Positions 4,931 through 63,828 are shown, counted from the first letter of the stretch. The stretch is 64,000 nt of DNA from Candidatus Campbellbacteria bacterium (GCA_034521025.1 JAXHMZ010000005.1:197176-261175); one strand, 5' to 3'. Notes: generated by a model from the sequence alone, not told the origin. Made by a program: numbers and translations.

Positions 4931-5815
4931 TTGCATATGCCCAAAAACAACGTCTATTCCTCTCAAAAGAAAAAGAAAACGAAATCAGTAGAAGTTAAGA
5001 AAAAACAAACTAAACCAAGCGTCTCCGGGGTGGAGACAAAGAAAAAAGATATGCTAGTAGCGGCAAACTGGAAGATGAATCCGGGCGAAATCGCTCTAGC
5101 CAAGAAGCTTTTCCTCGGAGTAAAGGAGGGAATGCGCAAGATCAAAAAGACCGAGGTGGTGGTATGTCCGCCTTTTGTCTATTTGGATACTTTGCTAGAT
5201 CTCTATACGGGGAAAAAGATAGGATTTGGAGCGCAAACTTGCTTTTCGGAGAAAGAAGGATCTTACACCGGAGAAGTCAGCGCCGGAATGATACAAAGCT
5301 TGGGAGCAAGATATGTCATATTAGGACACTCGGAACGTCGGGCTATGGGGGAAACGGATAAGGATGTGCGAGAGAGAGTTCAGCGGGTGCTCGAAGTTGG
5401 TCTTACTCCGATAGTTTGCATAGGTGAGCATGAACGCGACAATGACGGAAAGTATCTTGAGGTTATAAAGGATCAACTACAAGAGCTTTTTTATGGAATG
5501 TCTCGTGATTGGATGAAAAATGTCATCATCGCCTATGAGCCTATTTGGGCTATTGGCAAAAGTAGTAACGAGTCGGTAACTCCGCACGCCCTACACGAAA
5601 CAGCTATATATATTCGCAAGGTACTAGCAGGTCTGTTTGATAAAAAATCAGCAATAAGCCAGACAATTCTTTATGGTGGATCGGTAGAACCTAACAACGC
5701 CTCAGAGTTAATAGACGGAACGCAGGTGAACGGATTTCTCGTCGGCCACGCTTCGCTTGAATCTCAAGACTTTTTACAAATTGTGGAGGAAGTTGAAAAA
5801 TATGCACAACGATAA
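4931..5815 (+). CDS. tpiA: Triosephosphate isomerase (alternative start at ATG 5050 would remove a Lys-rich 40-aa extension)
   Basis: 'AANWKMN', 'ILGHSERR', 'CIGE', 'IAYEPIWAIG' and 'YGGSV' motifs. The conserved core begins at 'MLVAANWKMN' (5050). Confidence 0.85.
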   Translation: MHMPKNNVYSSQKKKKTKSVEVKKKQTKPSVSGVETKKKDMLVAANWKMNPGEIALAKKLFLGVKEGMRKIKKTEVVVCPPFVYLDTLLDLYTGKKIGFGAQTCFSEKEGSYTGEVSAGMIQSLGARYVILGHSERRAMGETDKDVRERVQRVLEVGLTPIVCIGEHERDNDGKYLEVIKDQLQELFYGMSRDWMKNVIIAYEPIWAIGKSSNESVTPHALHETAIYIRKVLAGLFDKKSAISQTILYGGSVEPNNASELIDGTQVNGFLVGHASLESQDFLQIVEEVEKYAQR

Positions 5816-6926
5816 CGATTTGCCATTACTCAGAAATGCGGATATATCTAGTGGACAAAAAGTTCTAGTCAGGGTTGATTTTAATGTTCCGGTTGATAAG
5901 GACGAAGTTAGAAGCGACTTTAGGATCAAACGTTCTCTAGAGACCATTGATTTTTTGCGTGAGAAAGGTGCCAAGGTAATTTTAATGAGCCATATCACTG
6001 ACGTTGATACTTTAGAGCCGGTATCGCACTATTTAAAGGACTTTATTCCCCATATATTTATAGAGGATCTTTATGACGAAAAAGACAGGTCGGCCTTAGA
6101 CGGGCTTGAGAACGGAGAAGTAGCTCTACTGGAAAATCTGCGCAGAAACTCCGGCGAAAAAGAAAACAATGAAGATTTTTCTCGCGATCTTGCAGATCTA
6201 GCAGATGTATATGTAAACGACGCTTTCGCGGTGTCGCACCGAGAGCATGCCTCGGTTGTAGGAGTACCCAAGCTTATGAAAGGTTGCGCGGGGTTCCTCA
6301 TTGAAGAAGAAGTAAAGGAGCTTTCGCGAGCGATTGACCCAAAGCACCCTTTTTTGTTCATTTTGGGAGGAGCTAAGTTCGAAACAAAAATGCCTCTTAT
6401 AGAGCGCTTTCTTGATATAGCGGACACTCTTTTAGTCGGAGGAGCTCTAGCAAATGATCTATATAAAGCCGAAGGCCTCGGTATTGGCCAGTCTCTTACC
6501 TCAAAGGCCGTTGATCTTGAAAAGGTATTCACTGATCCTAAGGTTCTCACTCCAAAAGAGGTGATCGTAGAGCGTGACGGAGAAGCTCACAAGATAAATG
6601 TTCAAGACGTGCGCGAAGAAGATATCATATCCGACGTGTCGGCGGAGTGGATTCGTACTCTGGAGGAAAAAATGGCCGACTCTGAAACCATTCTCTGGAA
6701 TGGTCCTTTTGGCAACTATGAAGCGGGTTACTCCGAAGGTTCGGAAATGATCGCCAAGCTCATTGCCGAATCCAATGCGCATTCCATTGTTGGGGGAGGA
6801 GACACTCTTGCTATAATCGGCAATCTCGGGATCAGCGATAAGCTCGGATTTATCTCCACCGGCGGCGGTGCTATGCTTGACTTCCTAGCCAACGGCACGT
6901 TGCCAGGGATCGAGGTGTTGAAATGA
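5802..6926 (+). CDS. pgk: Phosphoglycerate kinase
   Basis: 'VLVRVDFNVP' N-terminal motif and C-terminal 'GGGD...ISTGGGA' typical of PGK. GGAGG sits 12 nt upstream of ATG 5802. The longer 5757 start would overlap tpiA by 59 nt. Confidence 0.9.
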   Translation: MHNDNDLPLLRNADISSGQKVLVRVDFNVPVDKDEVRSDFRIKRSLETIDFLREKGAKVILMSHITDVDTLEPVSHYLKDFIPHIFIEDLYDEKDRSALDGLENGEVALLENLRRNSGEKENNEDFSRDLADLADVYVNDAFAVSHREHASVVGVPKLMKGCAGFLIEEEVKELSRAIDPKHPFLFILGGAKFETKMPLIERFLDIADTLLVGGALANDLYKAEGLGIGQSLTSKAVDLEKVFTDPKVLTPKEVIVERDGEAHKINVQDVREEDIISDVSAEWIRTLEEKMADSETILWNGPFGNYEAGYSEGSEMIAKLIAESNAHSIVGGGDTLAIIGNLGISDKLGFISTGGGAMLDFLANGTLPGIEVLK

Positions 6927-51783: not shown

Positions 51784-54537
51784 ATGGAAAGAAATCCATT
51801 CGAGGGAAAGAAATTTGATAGTACCGAAGAGGAACTCGCGTTCCTTCGCGAGGAGCTGCGCAAAAGAGAGAGTGCTCTTGAAACGCTACCTGGTGAGAGT
51901 CAAGAAGTAGAAAGAGAAAACAGAGAAGCCAAAGCGCGTGAGGTTGTATCTGAATACGCGAATAACTCTTTTGCTTTAAATGAAGAGAGACCGGAAGAAA
52001 TCACTCAGTCGCCGGAAATTAAGGAGCTTGGTTTAGCTCCGGAAAAACACGACGAAAAAGTCTCCGAATTGCTGAATTTGGCCAAGGAGAAAGGCATCAA
52101 ACAGACTCTAAGAGAAGTTCGAGCTCTCAATGATCCGCATCTCGAAGACGACTTTCACCGTCTTTTAGCGGAATATATAAAGACAGACCATCAGTTATCA
52201 GGGGTTGAAAATAACAAACGACTTTCCAGGGGTCTAAATCTCTCTCTTTTTGAGGTTAAGGTATCAAAGTCGGACCTCGACGACGGCAAAGATGAAACTT
52301 TTAAATCAAATCATTCCCTTATGCAGGAGTTGTTCTCCGGTCTTCGCTCTATTGCAGAAGGTGGCATAGAAGGAGGAAAAAAAGGTTTTTACTTTGGAAT
52401 AGAAATTGCTCTTGAGTACATTGGATCTCAAGTGAGATTTTTTGTAGCTATTCCCAAAGAAAAAATAGAGATGTTCGAGAAACAATTTTCTGCTTTATTT
52501 CCGAATGCGCACATCTCTTACGTAAAGGATGACTATAATATCTTTAATGAAAACGGCAAAGCAAGTGTTTCCAGAGGGTTCCTGAAATCTTCTGAAATTT
52601 TACCTATACGCACTTTTGATCTTTTCGAAACCGACCCTCTTAATACCATTTTGAATTCTTTTACTGAACTTGAACGCGAAGGTGAAGGGGCGGCGTTACA
52701 GTTCTTATTTTCTCCTCGTGGAGAAGGGGCGAACAAAAATTTTCGAGAGGTTAAAGAAAGGGTAGAAAAAGGGTCCAGTTTAGACAAAGCATTAGAAGAG
52801 GGCACTTTAGCCGGAGAATTCAAGAAACTTTTTCTACCCGGAAAGAAAAAGTCTAAAAACGAAGATGAACGAGAAGAGGTTTCAGAAAACGAGGAATTGG
52901 TAGAAAAGATAGAAAATAAAATATCTTCTCCTTTGTATAAAGTTAACATTCGCGTAATTACTTCAGCTAACGAAGTAGGCAGGGCAAAAGTTATTCGCGA
53001 GAACATAGAGTCGGCTTTCAATCAATTTGACCTTGAAGGATCGAACGCTATTCGTTTCAAAGAAGTTAAAGGCAACGCATTACGGAAGTTTGAGAACAAA
53101 TATTCTTTTAGATTGTTTGATGAGAGCAATGCCTTTTCGTTAAATACAAGAGAAGCGGCAACGCTTGTTCATATTCCCGGGCTTGGTACACATGTTTTAA
53201 GATCTTCGGGTTCACCTGGTCGTGAATCAGGAGCGCCTCCGAATGATATGCCGGAAGAGGGACTTTTGGTTGGCACTAATGATTATAGAGGGCGTGAACG
53301 CAAGATATTCCTTTCTCCCGACGATCGTCTGCGTCACTTGTATGTAGTAGGGCAAACCGGCACCGGTAAGACCACTATGTTAAAAAATATGATCACTCAA
53401 GACATATTGGATGGAGAAGGTGTCTGTATGATAGATCCGCACGGCTCAGATATAGAAGACATTCTAGCGGTTGTACCCGAAGAAAGATATGACGATGTCA
53501 TATATTTTGATCCGAGCGATCAGTCTCGTCCGATGGGACTTAATATGCTTGAGTTTGACAGCACTAGACCCGAAGAGAAAACGTTCGTTGTGAACGAAAT
53601 GTTATCTATATTTAACAAACTCTTCGATATGAAGACGGCGGGAGGTCCTATGTTTGAGCAGTATTTCCGCAACGCCGTACTATTGGCTCTAGGAGGAGAT
53701 GAGCCGGCTACTCTCTTTGATGTTTCGCGAGTCTTATCCGACGCTGATTTTCGCAACAAGAAAATTTCTGTTTCTAATAATCCGCCAGTAATACAATTTT
53801 GGAATGAGATAGCAAACAAAGCGGGCGGAGAAGCGTCGTTGCAAAATATAGTTCCTTACATTACTTCAAAATTTGATGTCTTTCTTTCTAATGACGTAAT
53901 GCGGCCTATTATTGCCCAGAAGCAATCATCCTTTAGTTTTCGTGAAGTTATGGATGAGAGAAAAATTCTCTTGGTCAATCTTTCCAAAGGAAAATTGGGC
54001 GATATAAACTCTTCTCTTATCGGCCTTATAATCGTCGGGAAATTGCTCCTAGCGGCGCTATCGCGAGCGGATTCGCAAAGAGAAGAATTTCCTCCTTTCT
54101 ATTTATACTTAGATGAGTTCCAAAACATAACCACCGACTCCATATCTACGATCCTTTCTGAGGCGCGCAAATATAAGCTTTCTCTCACGGTGGCGCACCA
54201 GTTCATAGCTCAACTTTCCGAACCCATTCGTGATGCGGTATTTGGCAACGTCGGGTCACTTGCAAGTTTTAGGGTGGGTGCCGATGATGCTGAATATTTG
54301 GAAAAATTATTTTCACCGACTTTTGATGCTCAAGATATTATGAATATTCAAAATCGTCAGGCAATACTGAAGCCGTTGGTCAGCGGCACCCCTCGTGATC
54401 CGTTTTTGATAAATACGCAGGCGCCAGTTGAAGGTAATGAGGGCCAAATAGAGAAACTCAAGGATCTTTCTAAAGACAGATTCGGGCGTGATCGTACAGA
54501 AATCGAAAGAGAGATCATAGAGAACTATAGAAAATGA
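51784..54537 (+). CDS. P-loop NTPase of the TraG/VirD4/HerA (AAA_10/DUF87) family with a ~480-aa N-terminal extension
   Basis: Walker A 'VVGQTGTGKTTML', 'CMIDPHGSD', Walker B 'LYLDEFQNI', then 'ARKYKLSLTVAHQF...QL' resembling coupling-protein C-terminal motifs. Start is 4 nt after the upstream gene. Confidence 0.7.
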   Translation: MERNPFEGKKFDSTEEELAFLREELRKRESALETLPGESQEVERENREAKAREVVSEYANNSFALNEERPEEITQSPEIKELGLAPEKHDEKVSELLNLAKEKGIKQTLREVRALNDPHLEDDFHRLLAEYIKTDHQLSGVENNKRLSRGLNLSLFEVKVSKSDLDDGKDETFKSNHSLMQELFSGLRSIAEGGIEGGKKGFYFGIEIALEYIGSQVRFFVAIPKEKIEMFEKQFSALFPNAHISYVKDDYNIFNENGKASVSRGFLKSSEILPIRTFDLFETDPLNTILNSFTELEREGEGAALQFLFSPRGEGANKNFREVKERVEKGSSLDKALEEGTLAGEFKKLFLPGKKKSKNEDEREEVSENEELVEKIENKISSPLYKVNIRVITSANEVGRAKVIRENIESAFNQFDLEGSNAIRFKEVKGNALRKFENKYSFRLFDESNAFSLNTREAATLVHIPGLGTHVLRSSGSPGRESGAPPNDMPEEGLLVGTNDYRGRERKIFLSPDDRLRHLYVVGQTGTGKTTMLKNMITQDILDGEGVCMIDPHGSDIEDILAVVPEERYDDVIYFDPSDQSRPMGLNMLEFDSTRPEEKTFVVNEMLSIFNKLFDMKTAGGPMFEQYFRNAVLLALGGDEPATLFDVSRVLSDADFRNKKISVSNNPPVIQFWNEIANKAGGEASLQNIVPYITSKFDVFLSNDVMRPIIAQKQSSFSFREVMDERKILLVNLSKGKLGDINSSLIGLIIVGKLLLAALSRADSQREEFPPFYLYLDEFQNITTDSISTILSEARKYKLSLTVAHQFIAQLSEPIRDAVFGNVGSLASFRVGADDAEYLEKLFSPTFDAQDIMNIQNRQAILKPLVSGTPRDPFLINTQAPVEGNEGQIEKLKDLSKDRFGRDRTEIEREIIENYRK

Positions 54538-56608: not shown

Positions 56609-57289
56609 ATGATAATTTTTGATAATGTAACGAAAATATACGGCAACGGCGTACCGGCGATCGAAAAAGTCGCTTTTGGGGTCGAGCCGGGCGAGTTTGT
56701 CTCTATTGTCGGCCATTCGGGCGCCGGGAAATCTACCCTCGTAAAGCTTTTGTTAGCCGAAGAGATGCCTAGCGAAGGAACGGTACTTTTTGACAAGGTG
56801 GATATACATAATTTACGCAAGCGCGACATAAACCTTCTACGTAGGCGGTTGGGTGTGGTATTTCAGGATTTTCGTCTGCTTCCGCACAAAACCGTATTTG
56901 AGAATGTGGCTTTTGCGATGGAGGTCTCGGAGCGCACCGACAGTGAGATCGAATCTGATGTTCCTTACGCGTTGGAGTTGGTGGGACTCGAAAACAAAGA
57001 AGAGAATTTCCCTAACGAGTTATCCGGCGGTGAGGCGCAACGTCTCGCTATAGCTCGCGCGATCGTAACCCAGCCGGATGTATTAATAGCTGACGAGCCT
57101 ACAGGAAACTTGGATCCGGTAAATATTCACGACATAATACGAATCCTGGAGAAGATAAACAGTTTGGGTACAACAATTTTGTTGACTACTCATAATAAAG
57201 GAGTCGTGGATTCGTTGGATCAGCGCGTCATAACAATGGAAAACGGCCGGATCGTTCGTGACGATAGAAAGGGGCGATACATTATTTAA
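56609..57289 (+). CDS. ftsE: Cell division ATP-binding protein FtsE
   Basis: ABC motifs 'GHSGAGKST', 'LSGGEAQR' and '[11 protein letters not shown]'. Confidence 0.9.
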
Positions 57290-60325: not shown

Positions 60326-60545
60326 CAAGTCCCTCCTTTCGTCTGCCTCTTTGATAATACTAGCACGTCTACTATGCCTGAGAAAATACTAAAGGAGTAC
60401 CTGCCCGAACGGCCAGGCGGTTCTGGTCGGGTGGGTCCGCTCGAACGCCCCCTGAATGAAATTTATTTCGGGCAGGTGCCGTTCGGTACGGGCGGGCTGA
60501 ATCTGTAAGATTCAAGTCTCGCCCTTTTCAATAAAATTTCTCACA
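60326..60545 (-). promoter_or_regulatory. Long GC-rich structured 5' leader of the DUF1653 gene (candidate cis-regulatory RNA)
   Basis: Alternative, mutually exclusive pairings between 'CCGAACGGC'/'CUGCCCGAA' and a downstream 'GCCGUUCGGGCAG'. Contains a 'GAACCGCCUGGCC' segment. Confidence 0.3.
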
Positions 60546-60648
60546 GTATTTATACAATACACGCCGCTGGATAGATGCACTATCCACATTGCTTTCGAAG
60601 AAGAGGTTATATAACTATGCTATAGTCAAGGAAACATAAATTAAAAAA

Positions 60649-60815
60649 GCGGTTTGTATGGTGAAGTAGGGTGAAAGTCCCTCACTGTCGCGCAACGGTT
60701 AGAGTCCGATCCCATACAATGCCTCCCAAGTGGAGCTGCTTATGATGCGCGTGACGTCCTGGTGAACACCTTTCGTATATCACCGAATGCACACGCATCG
60801 GTGATTTATGTTTTA
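60649..60815 (+). promoter_or_regulatory. Cobalamin-riboswitch-like element with an intrinsic terminator expression platform, upstream of nrdB
   Basis: P1 stem 'UUGUAUGG...CCAUACAA' enclosing 'GGUGAAAGUCCC...CACUGUCGCGCAACGGUUAGAG'. This closely parallels the E. coli btuB core 'GGAGCUGACGCGCAGCGGUAAGG' and the 'GGUGnAAnUCC' motif. It is followed by hairpin caccgaatgc / gcatcggtg plus a U-run. Confidence 0.5.
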
Positions 60816-60827
60816 AACACATAGCGT

Positions 60828-62141
60828 ATGCAAAAGACTTCCATCACAACAATAATTAAACGAGACGGTTCCGAGGAAGCCTTTGATCTTTCCAAGATCA
60901 CCGCAGCGATCTCAAAGGCTTTTGATGCGACCGATACAGGTTCGGCAGAAGAGGCGAAAAAAGTTGCCAATACAGTATATGAAAAGATCGCTACTTTATG
61001 CGATCACGCTTCTGCTGACAGAGACGCAGACGAGCGCTGCAACGATGGCAAGCCCGCCGTCGAGACCATTCAGGATCTTGTCGAAGAATCTCTTATGGAG
61101 CATAACTACCATGAGATAGCCAAACGCTATATCCTCTATCGCAACGAGCGTGCCAAACAGCGTGAACCCGACCTCTTCGAGAAGCGCACAAACCTACGCC
61201 CGTATGAATACCCTGATCTAGTTGAATATGTAGATGCTATTCGGCACTCCTACTGGCTCCATACCGAGTTTAATTTTACGAGTGACGTGCAAGATTTTAA
61301 GGTCAATGTTTCCGACAAGGAGCGTAGTGCGATCAAAAACGCTATGCTTGCAGTCGCTCAGGTTGAAGTAGCGGTTAAGACGTTCTGGGGAGATATTTAT
61401 AAAAAGATGCCAAAGCCCGAGGTAGGTGCTGTTGGCTATACGTTTGCGGAAAGCGAGGTGCGACATATGGACGCGTACGCACATCTTTTGGAAATACTTG
61501 GACTCAACGACGAATTCAAGCGCATAAAAGAGATTCCGGCTATACACGAGCGTCTCACGTATCTCGAAGACATCCTGCAAAGATCCCGCACCAATGACAA
61601 TCGTGAATATACGGAGGCGATTTTGTTATTCTCGCTTTTCACCGAGCACGTATCGCTCTTCTCGCAGTTCCTCATCATTATGTCCTTCAATAGACATAGG
61701 AATCTATTCAAGGGCATATCCAATGCGGTGGAGGCAACCTCGAAAGAGGAACAGATCCATGGACTTTTCGGGAGCGAACTTATTAATCAAATAAAGCGCG
61801 AACACCCCGAATGGTTTGACGATGAACACAAAGAGACGATCTATCAAGTGTGTCGCGACGCGTACGCCGCAGAAGAAAAGATCATTGACTGGATCTACGA
61901 GAAAGGCGAGTTGGATTTCTTGCCGGCTGTTACCGTTAAAGAGTTTGTTAAAAATCGGCTCAACAACTCGCTCGAGAGAATCGGAATGGAAAGACCCTTC
62001 GAGGTAGACGAAAAGCGTATCGAGGAGACCGATTGGTTTGACGATGAAGTGATCGCTACTAAACACAACGACTTTTTCTTCAAACGATCGATCAATTACA
62101 ACAAACGTTCCGCAAGCGTTACCAGTGATGACTTATTTTAA
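60828..62141 (+). CDS. nrdB: Class I ribonucleotide reductase beta subunit with an N-terminal ATP-cone domain
   Basis: N-terminal 'IIKRDGSEEAFDLSKITAAISKA' ATP-cone. Ferritin-like core with 'ESEVRHMDAY' (ExxH plus radical Tyr) and 'EEQIHGLF' (ExxH). Confidence 0.85.
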   Translation: MQKTSITTIIKRDGSEEAFDLSKITAAISKAFDATDTGSAEEAKKVANTVYEKIATLCDHASADRDADERCNDGKPAVETIQDLVEESLMEHNYHEIAKRYILYRNERAKQREPDLFEKRTNLRPYEYPDLVEYVDAIRHSYWLHTEFNFTSDVQDFKVNVSDKERSAIKNAMLAVAQVEVAVKTFWGDIYKKMPKPEVGAVGYTFAESEVRHMDAYAHLLEILGLNDEFKRIKEIPAIHERLTYLEDILQRSRTNDNREYTEAILLFSLFTEHVSLFSQFLIIMSFNRHRNLFKGISNAVEATSKEEQIHGLFGSELINQIKREHPEWFDDEHKETIYQVCRDAYAAEEKIIDWIYEKGELDFLPAVTVKEFVKNRLNNSLERIGMERPFEVDEKRIEETDWFDDEVIATKHNDFFFKRSINYNKRSASVTSDDLF

Positions 62142-62151
62142 ATAGTATATT

Positions 62152-63828
62152 ATGTCGTACCAATGGCTAAATGAAAACTCTCGTACTTTTCTTGAACGTG
62201 GATACCTCCAGAAGGGAGCTACCCCGGAGAGCCGCGTTCGTGAGATCGCTGAGACCGCTGAAAAGATCCTTGAAAAACCCGGTTTTGCTGATAAATTTGA
62301 AAAATACATGGCCGCCGGCTATTACTCGCTCGCTACGCCGGTCTGGATCAACTTTGGCTTAAATACCGGTTTACCGATAAGCTGTTTTGGTTCTTACATT
62401 CCGGATGATATGGCGAACATTCTCTATACTCAGGCGGAGGTGGGAATGATGAGTAAGTTCGGCGGCGGAACGTCGGCTTACTTTGGTGAGCTGCGCGGTC
62501 GTGGCGCGACGATCAAAGATCGCGGGCATTCATCCGGTTCCGTCCATTTTATGCAGCTGTTTGAGACGATCACTAATATTGTCAGTCAGGGCTCGGTACG
62601 GCGCGGACAGTTTTCTCCATATTTGCCGATCGATCATCCGGACATTGAAGAATTCCTTGATATTGGTTCAGAAGGGAATCCTATCCAGAAGCTCACTCAC
62701 GGTGTCACCGTTGATGACAAGTGGCTGCAGGGGATGATCGACGGCGACGAGGATAAGCGCCGTATTTGGGCGAAACTCATCGAACGGCGCGGACAAATGG
62801 GCTATCCCTATATTTTCTTCACTGACAATGTGAACAACAATACCGTTGATGTTTATAAAGATAAGGATCTCAAAATCTACGCGAGCAATCTCTGCACAGA
62901 GATCATGCTTCCGTCGCGGTCAGATTGGTCGTTTGTCTGCGATCTCTCCTCAATGAACCTGCTGTACTATGACGAATGGAAGGACACGGATGCCGTCGAG
63001 ACAATGACGCAACTTCTCGACGCTGTTATGAGCGAGTTTATACAAAAGCTAGAGGCTTTGCGTGATTCGGACGATAAAGATGATCGACTCGCATTCTTGT
63101 TTATGGAGCGCGCGTACAATTTCGCAACCGCGAACCGCGCGATCGGACTCGGCGCACTCGGCTGGCATTCTCTGCTGCAATCGAAAATGATCCCACTCGA
63201 GAGCGATGAAGCGAATGAGATAAATGCTGAGATCTTCAAAACCATTCGTGACAAAGCTTATGCCGCTTCTTCCCAGATGGCTAAGGATTATGGCGAACCC
63301 GAAATTCTCAAAGGCTATGGCCGCCGCAACACAACCGTTATGGCGGTTGCACCGACCACGTCCTCGGCTTTTATTATCGGTCAAGTGTCTCAGAGTATCG
63401 AACCCTACTTCTCTAACTGCTATGTCAAAGACATCGATAAGATGAAGGTAACGATCCGCAATAGCTCGCTTGAGAAGCTGCTTGAAGAAAAAGGAAAAAA
63501 TGATCGCGAAACCTGGAGCAGTATCCGTGACAACGACGGTTCCGTCCAGCACCTCTCATTCCTTAACGAGAATGAAAAAGCTGTCTTTCGCACGTTCGCC
63601 GAGATCGACCAATCTGTGATCATCAAGCAGGCGGCAGATAGGCAAGAGTACATTGATCAGGCCCAGTCTCTCAATCTAATGATCCCGCCGGATATGTCCG
63701 CCAAGGAAATAAACGAACTCTATCTCTTGGCCTGGCGTCAAGGAGTAAAAACACTGTACTACCAACATAGCATGAATGCAGCCCAACAACTCAGCCGAGC
63801 AAAGGTGTGCATTGCGTGTGAAGCATAA
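62152..63828 (+). CDS. nrdA: Class I ribonucleotide reductase alpha subunit, short form without an ATP-cone
   Basis: 'NLCTEIMLPS' active-site region and a C-terminal 'CIAC' cysteine pair. 558 aa, with no N-terminal ATP-cone. Confidence 0.85.
   Translation: MSYQWLNENSRTFLERGYLQKGATPESRVREIAETAEKILEKPGFADKFEKYMAAGYYSLATPVWINFGLNTGLPISCFGSYIPDDMANILYTQAEVGMMSKFGGGTSAYFGELRGRGATIKDRGHSSGSVHFMQLFETITNIVSQGSVRRGQFSPYLPIDHPDIEEFLDIGSEGNPIQKLTHGVTVDDKWLQGMIDGDEDKRRIWAKLIERRGQMGYPYIFFTDNVNNNTVDVYKDKDLKIYASNLCTEIMLPSRSDWSFVCDLSSMNLLYYDEWKDTDAVETMTQLLDAVMSEFIQKLEALRDSDDKDDRLAFLFMERAYNFATANRAIGLGALGWHSLLQSKMIPLESDEANEINAEIFKTIRDKAYAASSQMAKDYGEPEILKGYGRRNTTVMAVAPTTSSAFIIGQVSQSIEPYFSNCYVKDIDKMKVTIRNSSLEKLLEEKGKNDRETWSSIRDNDGSVQHLSFLNENEKAVFRTFAEIDQSVIIKQAADRQEYIDQAQSLNLMIPPDMSAKEINELYLLAWRQGVKTLYYQHSMNAAQQLSRAKVCIACEA

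What the first reader, a model, noticed from the sequence alone, without database searches (positions are those of the whole stretch)
60828..63828. ATP-cone fused to the RNR radical-generating subunit (NrdB), with the catalytic subunit lacking one
NrdB begins with a clear ATP-cone ('IIKRDGSEEAFDLSKITAAISKA...') ahead of the di-iron/Tyr-radical core. NrdA is short (558 aa) and has no N-terminal cone. Allosteric overall-activity control is normally exerted through cones on the alpha subunit. Cone-on-beta RNRs are a known but uncommon subclass. The gene order is beta then alpha.
Basis: partly seen in the sequence, partly recalled or inferred. Interest (0 to 1): 0.55.

Follow-up and report, generated by a model that had tools for sequence, protein, structure and literature searches.

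The report
ATP-cone NrdB class Id reductase operon
This is a ribonucleotide reductase operon from a Candidate Phyla Radiation bacterium in which the ATP/dATP on-off domain sits on the small (radical-generating) subunit instead of the large one; the design was already characterised in a marine flavobacterium, and here a vitamin-B12 riboswitch sits in front of it.

Summary
nrdB (60828-62141, 437 aa) has a Pfam ATP-cone at residues 8-109 (77.7 bits) ahead of the RNR small-chain domain. nrdA (62152-63828, 558 aa) starts 10 nt later and has no cone. The pair belongs to the NrdAi/NrdBi (class Id) type. NrdB aligns end to end with the crystallised ATP-cone NrdB of Leeuwenhoekiella blandensis (5OLK, E 1.5e-176, 62% identity). 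All cone-interface and metal-site residues named for that enzyme are conserved. The likely mechanism is therefore the published one, in which dATP drives inactive beta4 tetramers and ATP drives active beta2. The protein is already in NCBI (Candidatus Campbellbacteria MAG). The architecture is widespread in Patescibacteria. Three things go beyond the finding:
- An AdoCbl-II cobalamin riboswitch (60651-60722) plus a terminator-like hairpin precede nrdB. This is found in only 4 of 163 related loci.
- One of those four loci has the B12-dependent nrdJ next door.
- Patescibacterial cones carry a 10-13-residue insert flanked by two cysteines that flavobacteria lack.
Verdict: a new member of a known kind, of modest interest.

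The parts
60616..60626 (+). Candidate extended -10 promoter element (TATGCTATAGT) for the nrdB leader
   Evidence: Inference only. The block TATGCTAT...AAGGAAACAT is conserved with the closest relative L081. The simple sigma-70 scan did not call it.
60651..60722 (+). Cobalamin riboswitch aptamer, compact class (Rfam RF01689 AdoCbl-II)
   Evidence: Rfam scores 41.3 bits against a gathering score of 36.5, E 1.9e-6 for the whole window, covering the full model 1-81. A homologous element occupies the same position in L081, L001 and L047. On the alignment, 95.7% of cells are paired, 6 pairs change on both sides, and 0 of 500 shuffles reach this.
60774..60814 (+). Terminator-like hairpin plus U-rich tract (UUUAUGUUUU), the presumed expression platform; it ends 14 nt before the nrdB ATG
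   Evidence: The fold is -17.9 kcal/mol, z -5.1. An equivalent hairpin plus U-tract sits at the same place in L081. Function as a terminator is inferred, not shown.
60828..62141 (+). nrdB, radical-generating subunit of class Id RNR with an N-terminal ATP-cone (437 aa)
   Evidence: Against 5OLK: E 1.5e-176, 62% identity, aligned over residues 4-437.
60849..61154 (+). ATP-cone domain (residues 8-109)
   Evidence: PF03477 scores 77.7 bits. The residues Lb D73, M80, K89, I92, R95 and R102 correspond to D83, M90, K99, I102, R105 and R112 and are conserved. They are invariant or nearly so in 202 homologs. The AF2 model folds this region at pLDDT 74-91.
60999..61046 (+). Insert in the cone between helix alpha2 and the following strand, flanked by Cys58 and Cys73
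   Evidence: The insert is absent from L. blandensis and the Flavobacteriales loci. It is present with two or three Cys in 161 of 202 homologs, mostly Patescibacteria. The AF2 loop 64-67 has low confidence. Its function is unknown.
61185..62009 (+). Ferritin-like metal-binding core (residues 120-394) with class Id site residues E180, K184, W187, E210, H213, Y217, E273, T304, E308, H311
   Evidence: PF00268 scores 204.7 bits. The residues are mapped on 5OLK and invariant in 202 sequences.
62010..62141 (+). C-terminal tail with conserved Tyr424 and the ...SVTSDDLF end, the expected NrdA-binding and radical-transfer tail
   Evidence: The tail is nearly identical to the L. blandensis tail SINYSKRTQSITSDDLF. 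Y424 and F437 are invariant. The role is inferred from class I RNR knowledge.
62152..63828 (+). nrdA, minimal cone-less catalytic subunit (NrdAi, 558 aa)
   Evidence: TIGR02510 scores 756 bits against a cutoff of 602. The best solved relatives are 6DQX (E 9.8e-208; class Id NrdA of Actinobacillus ureae according to PMC8350387) and 6DQW. The motifs PISC78FGS, SNLC248TE, FVC263DLSS, LY536Y537Q and the C-terminal C553IAC556EA are present.

Best explanation
This is a two-gene class Id (NrdAi/NrdBi) aerobic ribonucleotide reductase operon from a Candidatus Campbellbacteria (Patescibacteria/CPR) genome.

NrdA is the minimal catalytic subunit and has no overall-activity site. The ATP/dATP master switch is carried instead by an N-terminal ATP-cone on NrdB.

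By close homology to the L. blandensis enzyme, the mechanism is inferred as follows:
- ATP-loaded cones leave NrdB as a beta2 dimer, which forms the active alpha2beta2 complex.
- dATP-loaded cones, probably with two dATP per cone bridged by Mg2+, pair through helices alpha3/alpha4 into beta4 tetramers.
- The tetramers bind NrdA only in non-productive alpha2beta4 or alpha4beta4 complexes, which shuts off dNDP synthesis.
- The radical-initiating oxidant is most likely a Mn2(IV,III) centre rather than Fe2-Tyr radical.

A second control layer sits on top of this protein-level switch. A compact-class cobalamin riboswitch followed by a terminator-like hairpin lies in the ~195-nt leader. It most likely lowers nrdBA transcription when a corrinoid is available, so that a B12-dependent class II reductase encoded elsewhere can take over.

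What is shown here: the domain architecture, the homology, residue conservation, the riboswitch match and its conservation and covariation. What is inferred: nucleotide-driven oligomerisation, the metal identity, the direction of the riboswitch response, and the existence of nrdJ in this genome.
For: Architecture:
- ATP-cone plus small chain on NrdB, none on NrdA.

Orthology to the characterised enzyme:
- 5OLK at E 1.5e-176, aligned over residues 4-437, 62% identity (44% in the cone, 67% in the core).
- Foldseek on the AF2 model ranks the four 5OLK chains first, followed by dimanganese class Id NrdBs.
- NrdA is closest to the class Id NrdA structures 6DQX and 6DQW.

Functional residues:
- The tetramer-interface residues (Lb D73, M80, K89, I92/I93, R95) and the gamma-phosphate contact (Lb R102) are conserved.
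- So are the class Id metal-site residues.

Published mechanism for the ortholog: PMC5794259, PMC8350387, PMC6754362.

Riboswitch:
- Rfam RF01689 scores above gathering, on the nrdB strand, about 105 nt before the ATG.
- Homologous aptamers lie upstream of nrdB in L081, L001 and L047, with compensatory changes.
- The terminator-like hairpin is conserved in L081.
- In L047 a B12-dependent nrdJ (NF006417, 1138.6 bits against a cutoff of 961) lies directly upstream of riboswitch-nrdB-nrdA.
- In L001 a second copy of the riboswitch precedes DUF4430 and cobalamin-binding-like genes.
- B12 riboswitch control of class Ia nrdABS in Streptomyces is an established precedent, as summarised in PMC12528414.
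Against: - There is no biochemical evidence for this protein.
- The cone is only 44% identical to the L. blandensis cone. It carries a 10-residue insert with two cysteines whose effect on nucleotide binding or tetramerisation is unknown.
- The AF2 model is only moderate (mean pLDDT 70), and the linker and parts of the core are poorly predicted.
- No second RNR is present in the 64-kb window. The rest of the source contig could not be fetched, so the isozyme-switch logic is untested for this genome.
- The riboswitch is absent from 159 of 163 related loci. It is therefore not a general feature of this enzyme family.
- I could not derive an unambiguous OFF-switch pairing scheme. One candidate hairpin (GGUGA/UCACC, with a loop complementary to the aptamer loop) would compete with the terminator and so argue for the opposite polarity.
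Confidence: 0.78

Rival explanations
1. The ATP-cone on this NrdB is a vestigial or purely structural appendage, and the enzyme has no overall-activity switch.
For: Some RNR ATP-cones are known to be inactive (general knowledge). This cone is only 44% identical to the characterised one and has an insert.
Against: K11, R12, D83, E86, M90, K99, I102, R105 and R112 are invariant or nearly so across 202 homologs. That indicates purifying selection on the nucleotide-binding and interface positions. The Pfam score is three times the cutoff.
Confidence: 0.07
2. The cone is functional but works differently in the Patescibacteria clade. The Cys58...Cys73-flanked insert would change the oligomer formed, or would add redox or metal gating to the dATP switch.
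For: The insert with its two cysteines is present in 161 of 202 homologs and absent from the Flavobacteriales and L. blandensis sequences. It sits between alpha2 and the strand that precedes interface helix alpha3.
Against: The alpha3/alpha4 interface residues themselves are unchanged. Some Patescibacteria members (L001, L047) lack the cysteines. Nothing links the loop to ligand or interface contacts, and AF2 confidence is low there.
Confidence: 0.1
3. The core is a conventional di-iron/tyrosyl-radical (class Ia-like) NrdB.
For: A Tyr (Y217) occupies the position of the radical tyrosine, and the E/EXXH/E/EXXH ligand set is generic to class I.
Against: The class Ia beta model NF006576 scores 18.3 bits against a cutoff of 346. 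All close solved relatives are dimanganese class Id proteins. The Lys184 and Thr304 hallmarks are invariant. In the orthologs the Tyr is about 6-7.6 A from the metal site and no tyrosyl radical is seen (PMC5794259, PMC6754362).
Confidence: 0.05
4. The cobalamin-riboswitch match upstream of nrdB is a chance hit or a decayed relic with no regulatory role.
For: The score is only about 5 bits above gathering. The P1 stem has two non-canonical pairs. Most relatives lack it: 159 of 163.
Against: E is 1.9e-6 for the whole window. Strand and position are right for a leader. The element recurs upstream of nrdB in three independent relatives, with compensatory changes in P1 and inner helices. One of those has nrdJ adjacent. 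A conserved terminator-like hairpin follows.
Confidence: 0.12

Closest known systems
Leeuwenhoekiella blandensis NrdAi/NrdBi class Id RNR (ATP-cone::NrdB; PDB 5OLK, 6SF4/6SF5; Rozman Grinberg et al. eLife 2018, PMC5794259)
   Same: - N-terminal ATP-cone on NrdB, with a cone-less short NrdA encoded next to it.
- 62% identity over the full length.
- Conserved alpha3/alpha4 tetramer interface, the gamma-phosphate arginine, the Lys/Trp/Tyr-Thr metal-site signature and the C-terminal tail.
   Different: - The host is a Patescibacteria (CPR) MAG, not a flavobacterium.
- The cone carries a 10-residue insert bracketed by two cysteines.
- NrdA is 558 aa; the L. blandensis construct is 600 aa (PMC8350387).
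- A cobalamin riboswitch lies in the leader. Apart from one weak opposite-strand match in L075, my model found none upstream of nrdB in the Flavobacteriales loci examined.
- Nothing has been tested biochemically here.
Facklamia ignava Grx::ATP-cone::NrdB class Id RNR (PMC6187632, PMC6754362)
   Same: An ATP-cone on a class Id NrdBi, and the Mn2(IV,III) cofactor family.
   Different: There is no glutaredoxin domain on this NrdB and no Grx gene adjacent in the window. A relative, L082, does have a separate Grx gene immediately upstream.
Flavobacterium johnsoniae, Actinobacillus ureae and Aggregatibacter class Id RNRs without a cone (PDB 6CWO-Q, 8DQ3-5, 6DQW, 6DQX)
   Same: The same NrdAi/NrdBi core. 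NrdB core E values run from 5e-115 to 1e-88 and NrdA reaches 9.8e-208.
   Different: In those structures the solved NrdB chains match only the core of this protein (from residue ~108), not the cone.
Cobalamin riboswitch control of B12-independent RNR operons (Streptomyces nrdABS, Borovok et al. 2006, as cited in PMC12528414)
   Same: A B12-sensing leader lies in front of a class I RNR operon. The logic of repressing the B12-independent isozyme applies when a B12-dependent NrdJ can work. The nrdJ-riboswitch-nrdBA layout is seen directly in relative L047.
   Different: Here the aptamer is the compact RF01689 class rather than the classic RF00174. The operon is class Id with the cone on beta. The host is a CPR bacterium. 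No nrdJ has been seen for this genome.
P. aeruginosa NrdA N-terminal ATP-cone (two-dATP type, alpha4 inhibition)
   Same: According to PMC5794259 the NrdB-borne cone uses the same two-dATP binding mode and the same cone-cone interface. 5IM3 is the best non-NrdB cone hit here (E 2.9e-7).
   Different: In P. aeruginosa the cone is on the catalytic subunit; here it is on the radical-generating subunit.

Membership tests
NrdBi with N-terminal ATP-cone (class Id beta, L. blandensis type) | ATP-cone domain at the N-terminus of an RNR small-chain protein | tested here: met
   PF03477 covers residues 8-109 at 77.7 bits (cutoff 25.8). PF00268 covers 120-394 at 204.7 bits.
NrdBi with N-terminal ATP-cone (class Id beta, L. 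blandensis type) | Closest relatives are NrdBi / class Id proteins rather than class Ia, Ib, Ic or Ie | tested here: met
   5OLK gives E 1.5e-176, followed by 6SF4, 8DQ3 and 6CWO. Chlamydia Ic gives only 6e-16, NrdF 4e-5, and class Ia NF006576 scores 18 bits against a cutoff of 346.
NrdBi with N-terminal ATP-cone (class Id beta, L. blandensis type) | Class Id metal-site signature: Glu/Glu-x-x-His/Glu/Glu-x-x-His ligands, a Lys projecting to the metals, a conserved Trp on helix 1, and Tyr held away by a Thr | tested here: met
   E180, E210/H213, E273, E308/H311, K184, W187, Y217 and T304 align to Lb E170, K174, W177, Y207, E263 and T294. They are invariant in 202 sequences.
NrdBi with N-terminal ATP-cone (class Id beta, L. 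blandensis type) | Mn2(IV,III) cofactor with no tyrosyl radical | not testable with these tools
   This needs EPR and metal analysis. It is inferred from orthologs (PMC6754362).
NrdBi with N-terminal ATP-cone (class Id beta, L. blandensis type) | Partner NrdAi catalytic subunit lacking an ATP-cone, encoded adjacent | tested here: met
   nrdA starts 10 nt downstream. TIGR02510 scores 756 bits against a cutoff of 602, full length. There is no PF03477 hit and no in-frame upstream extension.
NrdBi with N-terminal ATP-cone (class Id beta, L. blandensis type) | dATP-induced beta4 tetramer through cone helices alpha3/alpha4, and ATP-induced beta2 | not testable with these tools
   Only the residues can be checked. 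D83, E86/E87, M90, K99, I102, L103 and R105 match Lb D73, E76/D77, M80, K89, I92, I93 and R95. The oligomerisation itself is untested.
NrdBi with N-terminal ATP-cone (class Id beta, L. blandensis type) | Two (d)ATP bound per cone | not testable with these tools
   R112 (Lb R102, the gamma-phosphate contact) and the KRDG motif are conserved. Stoichiometry needs ITC or a structure.
Grx::ATP-cone::NrdB (F. ignava type) | Glutaredoxin domain N-terminal to the cone | tested here: not met
   There is no glutaredoxin hit on NrdB, and the cone begins at residue 8.
Class Ia NrdB (Fe2-Tyr radical) | Match to class Ia beta models, with the Tyr adjacent to a di-iron site | tested here: not met
   NF006576 scores 18.3 bits against a cutoff of 346. 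E. coli R2 structures are only distant fold matches at 16-17% identity.
Cobalamin riboswitch, compact class (Rfam RF01689 AdoCbl-II) | Covariance-model score at or above Rfam gathering over the full model | tested here: met
   41.3 bits against 36.5, model positions 1-81 of 81, E 1.9e-6.
Cobalamin riboswitch, compact class (Rfam RF01689 AdoCbl-II) | Structure supported by conservation and covariation in homologous leaders | tested here: met
   There are six aligned copies (window, L081, L001 twice, L047, L075). 95.7% of cells are paired, 6 pairs have double changes, and 0 of 500 shuffles reach this. Caveats: the sample is small and the alignment was fitted to the model.
Cobalamin riboswitch, compact class (Rfam RF01689 AdoCbl-II) | Binds a corrinoid and switches expression | not testable with these tools
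   A terminator-like hairpin follows the aptamer. The ligand and the polarity of the response are inferred.
NrdR regulon | Tandem NrdR boxes in the nrd promoter | tested here: not met
   No match to ACACWATATATWGTGT with up to 3 mismatches lies near nrdB. No NrdR-like cone gene is in the window.

The most novel reading that the evidence does not exclude
In Patescibacteria the NrdB-borne ATP-cone has gained a clade-specific loop bracketed by two conserved cysteines. This loop would add a redox- or metal-sensitive input to the dATP/ATP oligomerisation switch. In a few lineages, including this one, the same operon is additionally placed under a compact cobalamin riboswitch. Together these would make a three-input control (dATP/ATP, thiol state, corrinoid supply) of the oxygen-dependent reductase in an ultra-small symbiont that must scavenge B12 from its host.
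Probability: 0.1. Interest if true: 0.5.

Novelty: new member of a known kind. Interest (0 to 1): 0.27.

Why it matters
The core phenomenon, an allosteric on/off domain moved from the catalytic to the radical-generating subunit, was discovered and solved in 2018. This locus therefore adds no new principle. Its value is incremental, in three respects.

1. Distribution. The cone-on-beta class Id design is not a rarity of marine flavobacteria. It is the prevailing form among this protein's relatives in Patescibacteria, where genomes are tiny and regulators are scarce.

2. Layered regulation. This locus is an example of an RNA-level B12 input stacked on a protein-level dATP input. It implies that this CPR bacterium has access to corrinoids and probably owns a B12-dependent reductase.

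3. A testable variant. The clade-specific Cys-flanked loop in the cone is a cheap feature to test for anyone studying ATP-cone modularity.

Tried and rejected
- Fetching DNA beyond the window end with the look-up of encoding contigs, for both NrdA and NrdB: neither sequence is on record. The search for nrdJ in the same genome could therefore not be done.
- A crude regex for the aptamer in 80 upstream regions found nothing useful.
- Rfam at gathering threshold on 20 related loci found only tRNAs.
- nhmmer and blastn with the leader then revealed L081, L047 and L001.
- A purpose-built covariance model (R1) found no further copies upstream of nrdB in 162 related loci. The idea that the riboswitch is a family-wide feature is rejected.
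- NrdR boxes: none.
- A second RNR or a second ATP-cone gene in the window: none.
- The GC-rich stretch at 60374-60540 was considered as a tandem riboswitch of the nrdB leader. I rejected that reading for two reasons. It ends in its own terminator-like hairpin, and the sequence block conserved with L081, including the candidate -10 element, begins downstream of it.
- The same stretch has no Rfam, Pfam or tblastn match, either as RNA or as a 44-aa ORF.
- I tried to derive an explicit antiterminator/terminator scheme from folds of the window and L081 leaders. No unambiguous model resulted.
- Look-ups of Vitreschak 2003 and Borovok 2006 failed because the papers are not held. That precedent is cited only through PMC12528414.
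Full report
**Observation**

The two ORFs are exactly as reported. nrdB is 60828-62141 (+), 437 aa. nrdA is 62152-63828 (+), 558 aa. The two genes are separated by 10 nt.

Pfam scores NrdB as an ATP-cone (PF03477, residues 8-109, E 1e-21, 77.7 bits against a cutoff of 25.8). This is followed by the RNR small-chain domain (residues 120-394, 204.7 bits). NrdA has only the all-alpha N-domain and the barrel.

NCBIfam places NrdA in TIGR02510. It matches full length: residues 3-558 on profile positions 15-560 of 560, at 756 bits against a cutoff of 602.

NrdA cannot have a hidden cone, for two reasons:
- The reading frame upstream of its ATG is closed two codons earlier.
- A tblastn of the cone against all six frames of the window finds only nrdB. 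The same search finds no second RNR large subunit.

**What it is**

NrdB aligns end to end (residues 4-437) with chain 5OLK_A at E 1.5e-176. 5OLK is the crystal structure of the ATP-cone-containing NrdB of Leeuwenhoekiella blandensis.

Identity counted from that alignment is 62% overall, 44% in the cone and 67% in the core.

The next-best solved relatives are all dimanganese class Id NrdBs: 6SF4/6SF5, 8DQ3 and 6CWO-Q.

NrdA is closest to 6DQX (E 9.8e-208) and 6DQW. PMC8350387 identifies 6DQX as the class Id NrdA of Actinobacillus ureae.

An AlphaFold2 model of NrdB was built on 40 homologs. Its mean pLDDT is 70, and the cone blocks score 74-91. In a Foldseek search the four 5OLK chains are its top hits.

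The pair is thus an NrdAi/NrdBi class Id reductase of the L. blandensis type.

**How it most likely works**

The mechanism is published for the ortholog.
- In L. blandensis, ATP favours beta2 dimers and active alpha2beta2.
- dATP loads two molecules per cone. It drives cone-cone pairing through helices alpha3 and alpha4 into beta4, which forms inactive alpha2beta4 and alpha4beta4 complexes.
- Deleting the cone abolishes both effects (PMC5794259).
- SAXS and cryo-EM suggest that the tetramer sterically blocks the asymmetric active complex (PMC8350387).

I mapped every residue that paper names onto this protein.
- Cone interface and internal salt bridge: D73, E76/D77, M80, K89, I92, I93 and R95 become D83, E86/E87, M90, K99, I102, L103 and R105.
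- Gamma-phosphate contact: R102 becomes R112.
- Metal-site residues: E170, K174, W177, Y207, E263 and T294 become E180, K184, W187, Y217, E273 and T304.

All are conserved here. In an alignment of 202 homologs, nearly all of them are invariant. So are the KR of the KRDG motif, the EXXH histidines, Y424 and the C-terminal F437.

NrdA carries the expected catalytic motifs: PISC78, NLC248TE, FVC263, Y536Y537 and a C-terminal C553xxC556.

These are sequence-level demonstrations. Nucleotide-driven oligomerisation and the cofactor are inferred.

In class Id the tyrosine is held about 6-7.6 A from the metals by the conserved threonine. No tyrosyl radical is seen, and a Mn2(IV,III) centre, probably generated by superoxide, is the oxidant (PMC5794259, PMC6754362). 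The class Ia beta model scores 18 bits against a cutoff of 346.

**Host and distribution**

The identical protein is already in NCBI. It is annotated 'MAG: ribonucleotide-diphosphate reductase subunit beta [Candidatus Campbellbacteria bacterium]', on a 266,769-bp contig.

The window's other genes fit a small Patescibacteria genome: EF-G, RecJ, ComEC, SecY, FtsE/FtsX and CTP synthase.

The distribution evidence is as follows:
- All of the best 120 protein clusters (66-76% identity) carry both Pfam domains.
- The best 80 of those are mostly Parcubacteria/Paceibacteria and other Patescibacteria. There are also Flavobacteriales and a few MAGs labelled as DPANN archaea or Firmicutes.
- In every one of the 80 loci with downstream DNA, the order is cone-nrdB then nrdA.

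The 2018 paper counted 93 such proteins in RefSeq, 70 of them from Flavobacteriales, and called them rare (PMC5794259). In metagenomic space they are not rare.

**A clade-specific difference**

Relative to L. blandensis and the Flavobacteriales loci, most Patescibacteria cones carry a 10-13-residue insert. It lies between helix alpha2 and the strand preceding alpha3, and it is bracketed by two cysteines (C58 and C73 in this protein).
- 161 of 202 homologs have the long loop with two or three cysteines.
- Flavobacterial sequences have a short, cysteine-free loop.
- A few Patescibacteria members, such as L001 and L047, have a loop without cysteines.

AlphaFold places C58 at the end of an extended alpha2 and gives the loop low confidence. 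I have no evidence for what the insert does.

Rfam finds a single family in the whole 64-kb window. It is an AdoCbl-II cobalamin riboswitch aptamer (RF01689) at 60651-60722, on the nrdB strand, about 105 nt before the ATG. It scores 41.3 bits against a gathering score of 36.5, at E 1.9e-6, over the full-length model.

Homologous elements occur in the same position in three relatives:
- L081, the closest relative found (NrdB 76% identical, NrdA 81%), has one that Rfam scores below gathering (30.9 bits, E 0.0016).
- L001, a Parcubacteria MAG, has one with a 32-nt insertion in a loop.
- L047, a Kerfeldbacteria MAG, has a classic RF00174-like version.

The P1 stems differ by compensatory changes:
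- window: UUGUAUGG / CCAUACAA
- L081: AUACUC.GG / CC.GAGUAU
- L001: GUGUG.CGG / CCG.CACA

On the six aligned copies, 95.7% of cells pair and six pairs change on both sides. None of 500 shuffles reaches these values. The caveats are a small sample and an alignment fitted to the model.

The aptamer is followed by a strong hairpin (60774-60810, -17.9 kcal/mol, z -5.1) and a U-rich tract that ends 14 nt before the ATG. L081 has the equivalent hairpin and U-tract. This suggests control by transcription termination.

Two relatives give functional context:
- In L047 a B12-dependent class II reductase gene lies immediately upstream of riboswitch-nrdB-nrdA (nrdJ; NF006417 at 1138.6 bits against a cutoff of 961, plus a TSCPD domain).
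- In L001 a second copy of the riboswitch precedes DUF4430 and cobalamin-binding-like genes.

Repression of a class I operon by a B12 riboswitch when NrdJ can operate is an established pattern, seen in Streptomyces nrdABS as cited in PMC12528414. L. blandensis itself has a class II enzyme, and the 2018 paper states that all species with cone-bearing NrdBs also encode other RNRs (PMC5794259).

I therefore infer corrinoid-dependent down-regulation of nrdBA here, and an nrdJ elsewhere in the genome. Three caveats apply:
- The direction of the switch is not established, because I could not derive an unambiguous pairing scheme.
- nrdJ was not observed for this genome.
- The riboswitch is exceptional within the family. 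My covariance model found it upstream of nrdB in only 4 of 163 loci: the window, L081, L001 and L047.

No NrdR boxes are present.

**Comparison with the known, and novelty**

Every defining feature of the L. blandensis-type cone-bearing NrdBi/NrdAi pair that can be read from sequence is met here. The biochemical features cannot be tested with these tools.

This locus is not the Facklamia type, because NrdB has no Grx domain. It is not class Ia.

It is a new, uncharacterised member of a known kind, and the exact protein is already deposited and generically annotated. It departs from the characterised enzyme in three ways: the Patescibacteria host, the Cys-flanked cone insert and the B12 riboswitch leader.

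A specialist would not be surprised by the main finding. The riboswitch-plus-cone layering and the abundance of this design in CPR genomes are mildly interesting. Interest is 0.27.

Noticed in passing
window 60374-60540 (+): A GC-rich stretch lies between the divergent DUF1653 gene and the nrdB promoter. It folds unusually well (-68.6 kcal/mol, z -4.6) and ends in a terminator-like hairpin plus UUUUC. It also contains a 44-aa ORF (60374-60508, MPEKILKEYLPERPGGSGRVGPLERPLNEIYFGQVPFGTGGLNL). It has no Rfam, Pfam or tblastn match and is absent from the related loci checked by blastn and tblastn (L001-L082). It may be a small RNA or a small-protein gene.
   Followed up: partly
L047 3240-9000: A Kerfeldbacteria MAG carries nrdJ (B12-dependent class II RNR with a TSCPD domain), then a cobalamin riboswitch (5737-5903), then cone-nrdB and nrdA, all on one strand. 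This is a compact illustration of B12-dependent isozyme switching in CPR.
   Followed up: partly
L001 9148-12145: A second AdoCbl-II-like riboswitch lies downstream of nrdA. It precedes a 219-aa DUF4430 protein and a 746-aa protein with weak squalene-cyclase and eukaryotic cobalamin-binding-like matches. This is probably a corrinoid capture or uptake module in a Parcubacteria MAG.
   Followed up: partly
L075 5468-5533 (-): A weak hit of my riboswitch model (27.6 bits) lies on the strand opposite to nrdB in Flagellimonas sp. C4. It would serve a divergently transcribed gene. Not examined.
   Followed up: no
L082 5764-7707: A relative encodes a 75-aa glutaredoxin ending 9 nt before a longer (568 aa) cone-bearing NrdB. 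This resembles an unfused version of the Facklamia Grx::cone::NrdB arrangement. The extra ~130 aa of that NrdB were not examined.
   Followed up: no
window 21204-32175 (+): Three large consecutive ORFs (1992, 626 and 1009 aa) lie in a region of raised GC (0.50-0.54 against about 0.44). The first and third carry Peptidase_S74 (endosialidase chaperone / tailspike-like) domains. The second carries a CarboxypepD_reg domain. They are probably surface or adhesin-like proteins.
   Followed up: no
window 51784-54537 (+): A 917-aa protein has weak TraG/VirD4/TrwB-type coupling-protein and HerA-like ATPase matches.
   Followed up: no
window, gene starts at 56609, 57298, 58261, 60828, 62152: None of the five start codons inspected has a recognisable Shine-Dalgarno sequence upstream; the upstream regions are A/T-rich. 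Apart from the riboswitch, no Rfam family, and in particular no tRNA, is found in 64 kb.
   Followed up: no
loci L060, L061, L063, L054, L066, L068, L079: Cone-bearing NrdBi genes at 62-64% identity appear in MAGs labelled Woesearchaeota, Methanosarcinales, Erysipelothrix, Clostridiales, Oscillospiraceae and Gammaproteobacteria. This suggests either horizontal transfer or binning contamination.
   Followed up: no
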